IMG/VR virus record: IMGVR_UViG_3300042273_000448
DNA length: 64,000 nt
Source: a virus
Direction: 5' to 3' (one strand)
The first letter of the stretch is position 1. Every line of letters starts with the position of its first letter. Shown here piece after piece: positions 27,001 to 30,000 of this stretch. The position numbers are program-made.

Positions 27001-30000
27001 TTATATATATGAATTTTACCCTTATTTGGGGCATCCTTTCCTATTCGCGAATTTGATATACGCTTTCGAGTTACTTCACTTCTTTTCATACCCCTATGTT
27101 TTTCTGCTGTTTTTCGAATTTTTTCAGGATTTCTATTTATTTTATCAACTCATTCATCTGATTTTTTATGACCCTTTAAAGAGTTACTTAATTTTTTATT
27201 TCTTTCTTCTGTAAATGTTTTATTATATCATGTATTATATTCTTCTAAATTCATGTTTGTAAATTTTAAAAGTCTACTTGTAGATATATTTTTTCTATGT
27301 TCTAAAGAAAGTCTTCTTCCTCTTAATTTATTTGATAATTTTTGTCTTGTTTCTTTACTTACTGGAGGTCTATTTTTAAGAGCTTTTATTTGTTTTTCCC
27401 TATATTCATTGTTTTTTCATCTTTCTTTCGATGATATAGAAATTAACTTTTTGGCTTTTGGAGTATGTTTATAATTTCTAGATTTTTCAGAAATGAGCTT
27501 TTTTGTTTTATCAGAATGTTTTCTGCCATAAAAGCCATTTGCTTCTCCACATAAAATACACACATTACCACCCAATGATAAATTATAGTTTGAGTTATCT
27601 TTAACAAACTCTTCATTCACAAGTTCCCTTTCCAATAATTCTGCATCTTCTTTATTATCAAACACCATTATAATTTCTCTTTTAAAATTTTCTGGTCCAT
27701 ATTTTTCAATAGCTCTTCTTATATATTTTCCAGACCCCAAATACCCATCATCCAAATCATTTGTAGAATGGAACCCTATATAGTATTTCCCATTAATTAA
27801 ATTTGTCGTTTTATACACCATATAATATTTTTTAGTATTTTTGAAATTCATTTCATCTCCCATAAATCTATTTATATTAGATGAAATTGCTTTTGTTTTT
27901 TCTATGGTTGTATAAAAAATATCTCCATTATCATCACACACACAAACTTTTGTATATTTGGGAACACAGGATCTCCCACGGAATGTGTCTTCAGTTGTTC
28001 CAGCAGTTTCAATTTTAGATCCATTTTCAAATTCAATGGAATTTTTGTTATATTCTATAACCCCAGGTTTTAATCAAAAAGGCAGCTCCTCATACATAAT
28101 CTTAATACGTCTAAGAAGATCTTTTGCTGAACTTGCTTTATTAGATGCAATTCCGATGAATTTATCAGAATTAAAAATTGCATATCAAAGAGCAAAAGCC
28201 CCTACTGTAGTTGAATTGTGACTCTTTATACCATTAGTATAATAACATTCCCCATCAACATCTAAACAATCATACATATTAGAAAATGTGTTTAGTTTTT
28301 CAATACTAGAAATTTCTATATCACCATTTTCTGTTTCTATAAAATTGCCTGCACTTAAATCTTTGACATAAATTTCTTTATTATTTGAAAATAAAATATG
28401 ATTATCTGCACATATTAATTCTATACCATTTGATAATGATACTTTATATTCATCATATTCAATAGTTTTGCCAACCCCAGAAAAATCTTTTCACCCTTCT
28501 GGGGTTCATATTTCATAATCTTCACAGAAACGCTTTTCAACAAATTTATCATCTATATTAAAAGAAGATATTGTTAATTTATCAAAAAATTCTCCAATAG
28601 TTAGTTCTTCCTCTATTCCAGTTTTTTTGTTTCTAATTTTTATTTTTGTGTCCCAAGAAACGCACTTTCCCGATTGTCTGCAGAACAAGAAAACCAAATA
28701 ACGATTGTCTTTACACATTTTAATCATTTTTTTCTGAAATGGGTAAAGAAGATCCCCTAATTTTTTCCTGCCACCATCGATAGTAACAATAGTAACAAAA
28801 TTAAGAAAATACAAAACATCTTCTGAACACCTAACAAGATCTGATATCATCTCAGGTGTATATTCATTTTCCATTCCTGGGGTCTTTACAAATTTATCAT
28901 CGTATCTAATTGACATATTAAAAGCCTTTTCATAGTTTGATTTATTTATATAAATATTATAAACATCAAGTGAATCATAAAATTCTGGAGGAATTTAACT
29001 CATGTCTGAAATCTTAAAATTATTTACAGAGAAAGAACAAAAATCAAAACATTTTAATGAAATCTCTACTTTGTTAGAGAATACAATTAAAACTATAAGA
29101 AAATTTAATCCTTCCTTTACACTAGAAGAGGCAATTTCTTATACTACTGGGGCACTAGGTACAATTGCAGATAATGATACAAATGGAATTTACCAAAAAC
29201 TCTCTTTGGGGTTATCAAAGAGAACTTGGGACAGATTGATTGCCAGAGAAATTGTAGGTGTTCAGCCTTTGTCTGGTCCTGTTGGCCTATATTATGCTTT
29301 GAGATATTACGCCAGTGGAACTTATGCTGGGGGAACAGATACTGAAGTTGGATTCAATAAGGCAGATAGCACCTATACTGGTTCCTATTCTACATCTGCC
29401 GGGGAATCTTTAGGTTCTAATACAAATATAGGATTAGGAATTGGTGATGATACTCTTATTAAGGAGTTGAATGTCAAGCTTGAGAAAAAACAAGCAGAAG
29501 CGGTTTCAAGAAAGCTTAGAGCATCGTTCTCTGAAGAGCTTTTTCAGGATGTTTTTGCTATGCATAGTCTTAATCTAAGAGAGCAAACATGGGATGCTAT
29601 TGCTAGAGAAATTGCTACAGAAATTGATCTTGAAGTTATTAACAAACTTGACACAGTAGCTACATCAAACTCTCTAGATTTTGCTACTGTTGCTGGCGAT
29701 AATAAGTCTGATAAGTACAATTCATTTGTCTCCTATATTATTACATTGGCCAATAGAATTGGAACTCTTACTAATCACGGGGTAGGAAACTTTGTAATTG
29801 CTAATGCAAATGTTTGTACTTGTTTAGAATCATCTCAACAGTTTGCTGTTTCTCTGCTTAACGATTTTCAGGATGATTGAGATAAGCGTGTATGTTTTGC
29901 TGGAACAATTAATGGAATGAAGATTTATCGAAATATTTTCTGGGATACAGATAAATATATTGTAGGATATAAAGGATCAACTGAACTAGATGCTGGAGTT

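What the first reader, a model, noticed from the sequence alone, without database searches (positions are those of the whole stretch)
28215..28664. Second, contiguous mini-intein in the same terminase gene at the P-loop
Directly after RQSGK (T4 SRQLGK|T) the frame encodes about 150 aa beginning CVSWDTKIKI and ending YYTNGIKSHN, followed by S. The sequence then resumes TTVGAF..., colinear with T4 KT|TVVAIF. It has no endonuclease domain. The same gene therefore carries one intact mini-intein and one split intein.
Basis: partly seen in the sequence, partly recalled or inferred. Interest (0 to 1): 0.5.

Follow-up and report, generated by a model that had tools for sequence, protein, structure and literature searches.

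The report
Mini-intein in phage terminase P-loop
The 150-codon insert is a genuine self-splicing protein element (a mini-intein) sitting in the ATP-binding loop of a T4-like phage's DNA-packaging enzyme; this kind of element is already known, but very close relatives carry the same intein broken in two by an inserted nuclease gene.

Summary
Window 28215-28664 (minus strand) encodes exactly 150 aa, from C1 to H149-N150, followed by Ser. It lies between Lys and Ser of the terminase large subunit Walker-A motif (CRQSGK|STT). Two in-frame TGA codons must be read as Trp, as throughout the window.

Removing the insert restores gap-free colinearity with T4 gp17 and with 92%-identical intein-free alleles. 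The sequence matches solved inteins (CatC 1.5e-8; family profile VidaL 1e-13, gp41-1 2e-7). A 48%-identical relative models as a confident HINT fold with no endonuclease domain. Purifying selection acts on it (pN/pS 0.15).

Novelty is modest. Homologous contiguous inteins occupy the identical site in Ackermannviridae terminases (317 GenBank phage records carry a homolog in TerL). The family has at least 2,060 cluster representatives.

The added value is context. The intein belongs to the AceL-TerL/Cat/VidaL group of atypically split inteins. Relatives with 86-93% nt identity in the C-part have it fractured by a 398-aa zinc-finger nuclease-like gene at the loop that is continuous here. Other relatives show split-without-endonuclease and dispersed-piece states.

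The parts
28665..28916 (-). TerL N-extein (aa 1-84), ending in the first half of Walker A, ...LFCRQSGK
   Evidence: Translation. 94% aa identity to L003 and 92% to the intein-free P0029. Aligns to T4 gp17 up to SRQLGK.
28215..28664 (-). The mini-intein: 150 aa, from Cys1 to His149-Asn150, with no endonuclease domain
   Evidence: It is exactly 450 nt absent from the empty alleles L009 and L010.
28578..28664 (-). Intein N-part (residues 1-29, CVSWDTKIKIRNKKTGIEEELTIGEFFDK). It equals the separate N-fragment (IntN) of split relatives and contains block A.
   Evidence: Identical over 29 aa to the IntN of L007 piece 1 and P0024. Similar to the L005 IntN.
28548..28577 (-). Ten-codon linker loop (residues 30-39, LTISSFNIDD) joining the two parts. 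This is the position where relatives are split or carry an endonuclease cassette (S2 position, after helix alpha-1).
   Evidence: DNA comparison with L003 and L007. It is the variable-length region in the family alignment and the only lower-confidence stretch of the AF2 model.
28215..28547 (-). Intein C-part (residues 40-150), equal to the IntC of split relatives. It contains blocks B, F and G.
   Evidence: Aligns to CatC residues 5-111, E 1.5e-8. 57% identity to P0001 IntC and 86% nt identity to L007 IntC.
28491..28508 (-). Two in-frame TGA codons (intein residues 53 and 58, EI-W-TPEG-W-KDF) that must be decoded as Trp
   Evidence: conserved as TGA in L003. Residue 58 aligns with W/Y/F in homologues.
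28398..28412 (-). Block B equivalent, C85-A86-D87-N88-H89. C, A, D and H are invariant in the family, and Ala replaces the usual Thr of TxxH.
   Evidence: Invariant columns in A1. The same CA-x-NH / CSDNH is seen in VidaL and CatC alignments.
28215..28277 (-). Blocks F and G: M130-Y-D...YYTNGIKSHN150 (penultimate His, terminal Asn)
   Evidence: Invariant M130, Y131, D132, N144, S148, H149, N150. SHN|T or SHN|S occurs in 146 of 150 representatives.
28212..28214 (-). +1 Ser codon (TCA). It is the C-extein nucleophile and the Ser/Thr of Walker A (GK-S).
27969..28214 (-). TerL extein 2 (aa 235-316, STTVGAF...TFRGRS), lying between the two inteins
26811..27968 (-). Second intein: a short N-fragment (CVPKYTKVCV...) running in frame into a GIY-YIG/NUMOD3 endonuclease, with stop TAA at 26811-26813
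   Evidence: The same in-frame fusion is conserved in P0035 and P0053.
25447..26832 (-). ORF encoding the second intein's C-fragment (ending ...VISHN|C) plus the TerL Walker B and nuclease half. A possible start ATG at 26809-26811 overlaps the upstream stop (TAATG).
   Evidence: Intein_splicing 35.8 bits; CatC 5.8e-8.

Best explanation
The insert is a class-1 mini-intein (HINT domain only, no homing endonuclease). [quoted passage not shown]

The precursor is translated as one chain. The inferred mechanism is standard. Cys1 makes the N-S acyl shift. Ser+1 attacks the thioester. Asn150 cyclises, assisted by His149 and the block-B His89. An O-N shift then leaves CRQSGK-STT, an intact P-loop. Until then the ATPase cannot bind ATP. 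A functional terminase additionally needs trans-splicing of the second, split intein 82 residues downstream.

The element belongs to the sequence family that includes the atypically split inteins AceL-TerL/Cat and VidaL. It is the contiguous state of an intein that exists in close relatives as a fractured or split form.

Shown here: the position, the motifs, homology to solved inteins, the fold of a homologue, purifying selection, and presence/absence polymorphism. Inferred: actual splicing chemistry and kinetics.
For: - **Exact in-frame 450-nt insertion.** It lies between AAG(K84) and TCA(S) relative to the empty alleles L009 and L010.
- **Colinearity after removal.** The in-silico spliced protein aligns in one piece over 98% of its length to cyanophage TerL (E 2e-90). 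It aligns gap-free to T4 gp17 across SRQLGK|TT.
- **Sequence matches to solved inteins.** CatC 1.5e-8 and gp41-1 3e-3 with the window sequence alone. With the family profile: VidaL 1.3e-13, CatC 4.4e-10, gp41-1 1.6e-7, DnaX mini-intein 1.2e-5, PolB16 7.8e-4.
- **Conserved catalytic positions.** Invariant C1, C85-A-D-x-H89, M130-Y-D, N144, S148-H149-N150. The +1 residue is S or T in 146 of 150 representatives.
- **Fold.** The AF2 model of the 48%-identical contiguous relative has pLDDT 93.9 and pTM 0.87. All top-50 Foldseek PDB hits are inteins or BIL domains, with TM up to 0.85.
- **Purifying selection.** Against the L003 orthologue, pN/pS is 0.15 at pS 0.52, and every candidate catalytic residue is retained.
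- **Signs of mobility.** Intein parts are 93-95% nt identical between carriers whose exteins are only 80-81% identical. An empty allele and an occupied allele share 97% extein identity.
- **Same site in cultured phages.** Homologous inteins occupy the identical site in Ackermannviridae TerL.
Against: - No experiment has been done, so splicing is inferred.
- The window sequence alone does not reach Pfam's Intein_splicing gathering score (19 versus 35.8 bits).
- The Thr of the canonical block-B TxxH is Ala. The block-F His found in most relatives is absent here (VDGECYY). Both are family or sub-family traits, shared with L003, L007 and P0034.
- The structure model is of a homologue.
- The reading depends on TGA=Trp.
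Confidence: 0.9

Rival explanations
1. A decayed, non-splicing intein remnant. The interrupted TerL would be a pseudogene, or a second intact terminase gene elsewhere in the genome would do the work.
For: The window sequence is sub-threshold for Pfam Intein_splicing. It has non-canonical block B (Ala for Thr) and lacks the block-F His. Only 64 kb of the genome is visible, so a second TerL cannot be excluded.
Against: pN/pS is 0.15 over heavily diverged synonymous sites, with all catalytic positions conserved against L003. The same non-canonical residues occur in the whole family, including the crystallised, active VidaL and Cat inteins. The gene sits in the normal T4-like head-gene module next to Gp23 and Gp20 homologues. 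Exteins are under strong constraint (pN/pS 0.07-0.08).
Confidence: 0.04
2. The element is functionally split rather than contiguous. The in-frame TGA codons would terminate translation, giving an N-fragment of 136 aa and a separately initiated C-fragment that trans-splice, as in the relatives.
For: Under code 11 the ORF ends at residue 52 of the insert. Most relatives of this intein are split near the N-terminus.
Against: No ATG/GTG/TTG start with a plausible RBS follows the TGA codons. The second TGA lies 5 codons after the first and in the same frame. The real split point of relatives is 15-20 residues upstream, in the loop at residues 30-39, not at the TGA codons. TGA is used as a sense codon in 27 of 44 long ORFs and aligns with Trp or aromatic residues in homologues.
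Confidence: 0.03
3. A contiguous intein that arose secondarily, by loss of an endonuclease cassette and in-frame re-fusion of a split intein, rather than being the ancestral unfractured state. It would still be an active mini-intein, so this is a rival only about history.
For: The nearest relatives by intein sequence are fractured (P0026 and P0028, distance 0.12-0.13). The IntC start codon of L007 overlaps loop codons of the contiguous allele, differing by a single G. Split forms outnumber contiguous ones 109 to 33 among the top representatives.
Against: Contiguous forms with loops of many lengths are spread over the whole family, including distant Ackermannviridae. Precise in-frame deletion of about 1.27 kb is a rarer event than one cassette insertion. 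The published model takes contiguous to fractured as the forward direction (PMC2677866). The data do not polarise the change.
Confidence: 0.25

Closest known systems
Ackermannviridae (Vi1-like) terminase large-subunit mini-intein, e.g. Escherichia phage PhaxI, Vibrio phage Kuja and Klebsiella phage Magnus
   Same: Contiguous HINT-only intein in a T4-type TerL at the identical Walker-A position (QARQSGK|C...SHN|TTVVAAF). It is homologous (33-36% identity over the full 150 aa, E to 2e-18) and shares the CAD-x-H and YYTxG-x-LSHN motifs. It is noted in the literature as 'an intein element' (PMC6763660).
   Different: Only about a third of residues are identical. Those inteins have longer linkers (159-173 aa against 150). 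Their hosts use the standard code, and I saw no second intein in those genes. No fractured or split relatives at high identity were examined there.
AceL-TerL / GOS-TerL / Cat-TerL atypically split terminase inteins (PDB 6DSL)
   Same: Best or near-best solved-structure sequence match (CatC, E 1.5e-8, aligned over residues 38-149). The host protein is a phage TerL. The linker and split position follows helix alpha-1 (S2). The CxDNH and YYTNGI-x-SHN motifs are shared.
   Different: Those are naturally split (IntN 25-37 aa) and use Cys at +1. Here the chain is contiguous and +1 is Ser, at the P-loop. I infer, without testing, that the characterised ones sit at another TerL site, because a P-loop +1 must be Ser or Thr. 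The window's second intein (SHN|C) matches CatC equally well.
VidaL intein (PDB 6VGV)
   Same: Top hit of the family profile (E 1.3e-13) and top Foldseek hit of the model (E 7e-11, TM 0.78/0.81). It shares Ala at the block-B 'Thr' position (CAFNH).
   Different: VidaL is split after beta-2 (S1, 16-aa IntN), not after alpha-1, and has about 22% identity. Its host protein was not checked here.
TerL1-a 'classic P-loop' inteins of mycobacteriophages (Kelley et al. 2016)
   Same: Insertion between the invariant Walker-A Lys and the nucleophilic Thr/Ser of a phage large terminase. Splicing is required to form the ATPase site (PMC5050341).
   Different: The host protein family is different (Terminase_1 against Terminase_6). 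For Terminase_6, that survey reported only a C-motif site. No sequence relationship was tested here.
Fractured genes (Dassa et al. 2009)
   Same: Close relatives of this very intein (L006-L008) show the fractured arrangement: IntN, spacer, free-standing nuclease-like ORF, IntC. The window's second intein is also of this kind, with a GIY-YIG gene.
   Different: The intein under review is itself unbroken and has no endonuclease. It corresponds to the model's assumed 'step I' precursor state, not to a fractured gene.

Membership tests
Intein (HINT superfamily, class 1) | In-frame insertion in a conserved host-protein motif, with exteins colinear with intein-free homologues | tested here: met
   The 450-nt insert lies between K84 and S. 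Empty alleles L009 and L010 were compared. There are gap-free alignments to T4 gp17, P0029 and P0030, and a one-piece 98% alignment to cyanophage TerL.
Intein (HINT superfamily, class 1) | Nucleophile (Cys/Ser) at intein position 1 | tested here: met
   Cys1 (TGC, 28664-28662). It is invariant in the family alignment.
Intein (HINT superfamily, class 1) | Block B with conserved His (canonical TxxH) | tested here: met
   A86-D-N-H89. His is invariant. Thr is replaced by Ala throughout the family, as in the solved VidaL (CAFNH). Cat has Ser (CSDNH).
Intein (HINT superfamily, class 1) | Blocks F/G ending in His-Asn, followed by a Cys/Ser/Thr +1 nucleophile | tested here: met
   MYD...YYTNGIKSHN|S. 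SHN|T or SHN|S occurs in 146 of 150 representatives. The block-F His present in most relatives is absent in the window/L003/L007/P0034 sub-group.
Intein (HINT superfamily, class 1) | HINT (horseshoe) fold | tested here: inconclusive
   Met for a 48%-identical contiguous relative at the same site: pLDDT 93.9, and the top 50 PDB fold hits are all inteins or BIL domains. The window's own sequence could not be modelled because the tool refuses the TGA=Trp translation. Its sequence does align to solved inteins.
Intein (HINT superfamily, class 1) | Pfam Intein_splicing (PF14890) above gathering score | tested here: not met
   19 bits against a cut-off of 35.8 (E 1.3e-3) for the window sequence. Five of 10 family members match at E<=0.01. 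This is a model-sensitivity issue, and profile-to-PDB hits are strong.
Intein (HINT superfamily, class 1) | Autocatalytic protein splicing that ligates the exteins | not testable with these tools
   Supported only indirectly: purifying selection (pN/pS 0.15) and the fact that the P-loop of an essential enzyme is interrupted.
Mini-intein (no homing-endonuclease domain) | Splicing domain only, about 130-200 aa, with no LAGLIDADG/HNH/other nuclease domain | tested here: met
   150 aa with no nuclease Pfam hit. The homologue model is a single HINT domain. The linker is only 10 residues.
Atypically split inteins (AceL-TerL / GOS-TerL / Cat; S2 type) | Sequence homology to the family | tested here: met
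   CatC E 1.5e-8 over residues 38-149, and 4.4e-10 with the family profile.
Atypically split inteins (AceL-TerL / GOS-TerL / Cat; S2 type) | Encoded as two polypeptides, with a short (15-37 aa) IntN | tested here: not met
   The frame is continuous through the loop at 28548-28577. Relatives do meet it: L005 (36-aa IntN, 36-nt spacer), L006-L008 (30-aa IntN plus cassette), and 109 of 150 representatives.
Atypically split inteins (AceL-TerL / GOS-TerL / Cat; S2 type) | Cys at +1 (as in AceL-, GOS- and Cat-TerL) | tested here: not met
   +1 is Ser here and Ser/Thr in the whole P-loop family. Table in PMC11766414.
Fractured gene arrangement (Dassa 2009) | Free-standing endonuclease gene between the IntN- and IntC-coding parts | tested here: not met
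   There is none in this intein in the window. It is present in L006-L008 for the same intein and, as an in-frame GIY-YIG fusion, in the window's second intein.
Classic P-loop intein insertion (GK|S/T) | Insertion between the Walker-A Lys and the following Ser/Thr of a P-loop NTPase | tested here: met
   CRQSGK|...|STT. The same position is used in all 33 contiguous representatives, including non-terminase ATPases. Described for TerL1-a in PMC5050341.

The most novel reading that the evidence does not exclude
The window preserves the unbroken allele of an intein that, in phages whose intein C-part is 86-93% nt identical, has been fractured at its alpha-1 loop. The fracturing cassette is about 1.27 kb and encodes a zinc-finger / PD-(D/E)XK-like nuclease.

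Together with empty-site, split-without-endonuclease and dispersed-piece relatives, this one intein family at one site appears to sample every stage of the Dassa gene-breaking pathway. It offers a natural cis/trans pair of an AceL-TerL-like intein with Ser/Thr at +1.

If the contiguous and fractured forms are both active, a handful of loop changes would suffice to switch between cis- and trans-splicing in nature.
Probability: 0.6. Interest if true: 0.55.

Novelty: new member of a known kind. Interest (0 to 1): 0.38.

Why it matters
**For annotation.** The gene would be mis-called as fragments by any standard-code pipeline. JGI called only a 136-aa ORF for the relative. Recognising TGA=Trp plus two inteins recovers one intact terminase.

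**For intein biology.** The element itself is an ordinary P-loop mini-intein. Its near-identical fractured counterpart, together with the empty, split and dispersed relatives, documents a pathway for how split inteins arise. In 2009 that pathway was proposed largely from fractured loci alone.

**For protein engineering.** The family is related to AceL-TerL, Cat and VidaL, which are used for labelling because of their short N-fragments. Natural members with Ser/Thr at +1, existing in both cis and trans forms, could be useful starting points. None of this changes what is known about how inteins work.

Tried and rejected
I worked around this with standard-code relatives plus exact window fragments.
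- **Bachmann & Mootz 2015 (PMC4661395).** I wanted the AceL/GOS-TerL insertion site, but the paper is not held. Whether the characterised split TerL inteins sit at the window's site 2 therefore remains an inference from their Cys+1.
- **Literature searches.** 'Atypical split intein' + terminase gave 0 papers. A search on gp17 P-loop inteins found nothing specific.
- **PHROGs.** No hit for the intein or for the downstream 144-aa ORF.
- **144-aa ORF against PDB.** No sequence hit, so its Hint-like look remains unsupported.
- **'Tako8' rows in the PDB profile search.** Rejected as a repeat-protein artefact, because no single stretch passes threshold.
- **TGA = Gly (code 25).** Considered and rejected, because TGA positions align with Trp or aromatic residues.
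- **NJ tree to polarise contiguous versus split states.** The states are as scattered as shuffled labels (35 against 37.3 changes). The tree neither polarises the change nor proves many independent events.
- **Jukes-Cantor-corrected dS.** It failed because synonymous sites in the N-extein are saturated. Raw proportions are reported instead.
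Full report
**1. Observation**

The feature lies on the minus strand. An ORF starting at 28916 (MSIRYDDKF...) encodes the N-terminus of a T4-type large terminase and reaches ...LFCRQSGK at 28665. The next 150 codons (28664 down to 28215) read CVSWDTKIKIRNKKTG...DGECYYTNGIKSHN. The frame then continues S-TTVGAFALWYAIF....

One condition was not stated. The 150 codons contain two in-frame TGA codons (28508-28506 and 28493-28491), so the mechanical ORF list under the standard code stops after residue 52 of the insert. TGA has to be read as a sense codon throughout this window:
- 27 of 44 long ORFs contain in-frame TGA.
- Allowing TGA raises the ORF-covered length from 52 to 80 kb.
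- TGA+TGG together make 1.43% of codons, a normal Trp frequency.
- TGA positions align with Trp or aromatic residues in standard-code homologues (e.g. ...TD(E/T)GW......LW(Y/V)AIF......LPNWLKPG...). The meaning is therefore Trp, not Gly.

**2. It is an insertion in the P-loop**

Deleting the 150 aa (and the second intein described in section 7) gives a 519-aa protein. It aligns as a single ungapped piece over 98% of its length to cyanophage terminase large subunits (36% identity, E 2e-90). It also matches Pfam Terminase_6N and Terminase_6C.

Against T4 gp17 the junction reads LFCRQSGK|STTVGAF versus NLSRQLGK|TTVVAIF with no gap. The insert therefore lies between the Walker-A Lys and Ser/Thr.

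Metagenomic TerLs that are 89-92% identical (P0029, P0030, P0032) have the uninterrupted motif CRQSGKSTTVGAF. At DNA level the insert is exactly 450 nt, between AAG (K84) and TCA (Ser), relative to these empty alleles (L009, L010).

**3. It is an intein**

Sequence evidence:
- The window sequence alone hits solved inteins: CatC (the C-fragment of the engineered consensus of atypically split TerL inteins, PDB 6DSL) at E 1.5e-8 over residues 38-149, and gp41-1 at 3e-3.
- Pfam Intein_splicing is only sub-threshold (19 bits against 35.8).
- A ten-member alignment of contiguous relatives has invariant C1, C85-A86-D87-x-H89, M130-Y131-D132, N144 and S148-H149-N150.
- As a profile, that alignment hits VidaL (1.3e-13), CatC (4.4e-10), gp41-1 (1.6e-7), the Spl DnaX mini-intein (1.2e-5) and PolB16 (7.8e-4). 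The 'Tako8' rows are a repeat artefact, with no stretch passing on its own.

Block B has His89, with Ala in place of the usual Thr, as in VidaL's CAFNH. Blocks F and G end in SHN followed by Ser.

I therefore modelled the 48%-identical contiguous intein of P0034, which sits at the same site, using a 20-row family alignment. The model has pLDDT 93.9 and pTM 0.87. The only weaker stretch is residues ~31-40. All top-50 Foldseek matches in the PDB are inteins or bacterial intein-like domains: VidaL 7e-11 (TM 0.78/0.81), and TFIIB and RadA mini-inteins with TM up to 0.85. There is no room for, and no sign of, an endonuclease domain.

**4. It is maintained by selection and shows signs of mobility**

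L003, a 17.5-kb JGI contig that also uses TGA as a sense codon, carries the orthologous 150-aa intein at the same site.
- Between window and L003 the intein is 85% identical in protein. pS is 0.52 and pN 0.078, giving pN/pS 0.15. The flanking exteins give 0.07-0.08.
- All candidate catalytic residues and both TGA codons are conserved.
- Intein segments are more alike between carriers than the surrounding exteins are. The C-part of L003 versus L007 is 93% nt identical, and the N-part of window versus L007 is 95%, against 80-81% for the exteins.
- An occupied allele (L007) and an empty allele (L010) share 97% extein identity.
- Conversely, P0246 has about 90%-identical exteins but only a 54%-identical intein at the same site.

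These discordances are what a horizontally moving element produces.

**5. Relationship to split inteins: the most interesting result**

Most metagenomic homologues of the insert are about 240-aa ORFs with this layout: Met, then the C-terminal ~110 aa of the intein (...YYTNGILSHN), then S/T-TT... (the middle TerL extein up to ...RGK), then a short Cys-initiated N-fragment of a second intein. In many relatives the P-loop intein is therefore split near its N-terminus, i.e. atypically split.

The states found were:
- **Adjacent pieces, no endonuclease (L005).** The N-extein plus a 36-aa IntN (CVYEKTLIKIRNKQTLVVEELTIGEF...) is followed by a 36-nt spacer and then the IntC ORF.
- **Fractured (L006, L007, L008).** IntN is identical to the window over 29 aa, and IntC is 86-93% nt identical to the window and L003. 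The intein is interrupted by a stop codon, a 62-nt spacer, a 398-aa ORF and 5 nt, after which IntC starts MSKFIEKRN.... In the window and L003 the same two parts are joined by ten codons, LTISSFNIDD or LTTSSFVIND (28548-28577). The IntC start codon of L007 overlaps the loop's N-D codons and differs by one extra G.
- **The cassette ORF.** It has a Ros/MucR-type zinc finger (E 6e-8) and a weak PvuRts1I-like nuclease match, with an IEFDGYYYHG motif. Its homing-endonuclease role is inferred from its position.
- **Isolated middle piece (L001, a 306-kb contig; L004).** The middle TerL piece stands alone.

The low-confidence linker in the model follows helix 23-31. This is the 'S2' split position reported for AceL-TerL and GOS-TerL (PMC13014065).

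An exhaustive HMM search of 1.84 billion cluster representatives found 2,060 relatives at E<=1e-3 and 287 at E<=1e-30. Of the best 150:
- 33 are contiguous and 109 are IntC at a protein N-terminus.
- Every contiguous one follows a Walker-A GK (mostly RQxGK of TerL, a few other ATPases).
- The +1 residue is Thr (97) or Ser (49).

On an NJ tree of 162 C-parts the two states are as interleaved as shuffled labels (35 versus 37.3 changes). So either transitions are frequent or the tree is unresolved. The direction of change in the window's clade is not determined.

These states map onto the gene-breaking model of Dassa et al. 2009 (PMC2677866) as follows:
- the empty site precedes the model;
- the contiguous mini-intein (the window) is step I;
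- the fractured form is step II;
- the split form without endonuclease is step III;
- the dislocated pieces are step IV.

**6. What is already known**

- Terminases are a common intein host. The insertion between the P-loop Lys and Thr is called 'classic' and was described for Terminase_1-type TerL of mycobacteriophages (TerL1-a; PMC5050341; PMC4760082).
- Fractured terminase genes with GIY-YIG or Vsr-like endonucleases were described in 2009.
- Decisive for novelty: a tblastn of the 150 aa against 50,697 GenBank phage records finds 317 genomes with a homologue inside their annotated large terminase, 291 of them covering at least 80% of the insert at 33-36% identity. They are mainly Ackermannviridae, plus Campylobacter CP220-like and Vibrio phages.
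- In PhaxI and Kuja the intein is contiguous (159 and 173 aa) and sits at the identical position, QARQSGK|C...SHN|TTVVAAF. In CPt10 it lies a few residues upstream, PRQ|C...SHN|SSKST.
- The genome announcement of Klebsiella phage Magnus states that the large terminase gene harbours an intein element (PMC6763660).

The finding is therefore a new member of a known kind. I found no paper in the searchable library that links these contiguous TerL P-loop inteins to the AceL-TerL/Cat/VidaL split inteins, or that shows a near-identical contiguous/fractured pair. That library is incomplete.

**7. The second intein (context)**

After extein 2 (...TFRGRS, 27969-28214) the frame continues with CVPKYTKVCVCDDNGDIFYTTIEK.... 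This resembles the short N-fragments of split relatives. It runs without a stop into a GIY-YIG/NUMOD3 endonuclease, ending TAA at 26811-26813.

An overlapping start (TAATG, or an ATG 21 nt upstream) opens an ORF to 25447. That ORF encodes a 101-108-aa C-fragment ending VISHN|C, followed by the Walker B half and the nuclease domain of TerL.

Further points:
- The same in-frame IntN-endonuclease fusion is conserved in P0035 (81% identity) and P0053 (73%).
- Site 2 is empty in L003 and in P0029/P0030 (...RGRS|VALLLLDE...).
- The two inteins of the gene are 31% identical to each other, and both hit CatC at about 1e-8.

**8. Mechanism and verdict**

The best-supported explanation (confidence about 0.9) is a splicing-competent class-1 mini-intein. 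Its excision (Cys1 thioester, Ser+1 transesterification, Asn150 cyclisation) rebuilds the Walker-A loop of the packaging ATPase. The chemistry is inferred from conserved residues and family membership, not shown.

With no endonuclease of its own, its spread would depend on one of three routes: recombination; co-conversion with the GIY-YIG-driven second intein only 246 nt away; or endonucleases supplied in trans. The window does encode a distant homologue of the L007 cassette protein at 16935-18239. All of this is speculative.

Rivals are a decayed remnant, a functional split at the TGA codons, and secondary re-fusion. They are discussed separately. The first two are unlikely. The third concerns history only.

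Interest is moderate. The element is ordinary for specialists. The natural contiguous/fractured pair and the three-piece terminases in relatives are worth a note.

Noticed in passing
whole window; e.g. 28491-28508, 29878-29880: TGA is a sense codon (Trp) throughout. 27 of 44 long ORFs carry in-frame TGA, and the capsid gene at 29002-30165 reads through one. Among the 8 tRNA genes at 11225-13302 there is no tRNA-Trp(UCA). Standard-code gene callers truncate these genes; JGI called only a 136-aa fragment for the relative's TerL.
   Followed up: partly
window 26811-27968 (-) and 25447-26832 (-): In the second intein of the same TerL gene, the short N-fragment is fused in frame to a GIY-YIG/NUMOD3 endonuclease. 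The C-fragment ORF starts at a stop/start overlap (TAATG). The in-frame fusion is conserved in P0035 and P0053. Dassa's fractured genes instead have a non-coding spacer before the endonuclease gene.
   Followed up: partly
L006 704-3940; L007 1698-4938; L008 740-3747: Relatives whose intein C-part is 86-93% nt identical to the window and L003 have the P-loop intein fractured by a 398-aa ORF. That ORF has a Ros/MucR zinc finger and a weak PD-(D/E)XK-like match (IEFDGYYYHG). In L008 the ORF is itself broken into two calls (129 and 149 aa).
   Followed up: partly
L001 6001-6753 (306-kb contig); L004 461-1171; L005 6587-7738: In many relatives TerL is encoded in three pieces by two atypically split inteins. 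The middle piece is IntC + 85-aa extein + IntN. The pieces are sometimes adjacent (L005, 36-nt spacer). Sometimes the middle piece stands alone (L001, with an antisense GIY-YIG gene next to it; L004). Some relatives (P0036, P0046, P0059, P0061) have a third split site after the QE(F/Y) motif.
   Followed up: partly
window 16935-18239 (-) and 37527-39479 (-): These are free-standing ORFs with an N-terminal zinc finger and an IEY(D/N)G..(Y/F)H motif. The first lies next to NrdD and is a 24%-identical homologue (E 3e-6) of the cassette ORF that fractures the intein in L007. Neither has a Pfam hit at E<=1e-3.
   Followed up: partly
window 24978-25412 (-): A 144-aa ORF lies immediately downstream of TerL (MKTCLVHRGSMVTVK...VFVDDIAIEL). 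By eye it resembles a Hint-like domain and it is conserved as a 143-aa gene in L003 and L009. It has no Pfam, PHROG or PDB sequence hit, so its function is unknown.
   Followed up: partly
L009 1-93 (gene runs off the locus): In a related phage with an intein-free TerL, the T4-type portal gene is 969 aa with Intein_splicing (weak) and HNH_3 hits. That suggests an intein in the portal. The window's portal (30704-32257, 517 aa) has none.
   Followed up: no
P0097; P0108-P0139; P0160, P0185, P0217: The same intein family also occupies the GK|S/T position of other P-loop proteins. Examples are an AAA ATPase (GEPGTGK|C...SHN|TTL) and many DnaB_C-domain helicases, where only IntC + C-extein ORFs of about 386 aa are seen.
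   Followed up: no
L003 10091-11212: The close relative L003 carries a TnpB/Cas12f1-like gene shortly after TerL. I did not check the window for one at the corresponding place.
   Followed up: no
window 29002-30165 (+) and 35379-36620 (+): Two Gp23-family capsid genes (387 and 413 aa) are present, one of them divergently adjacent to TerL. This is presumably a major capsid plus vertex protein pair, as in T4.
   Followed up: no
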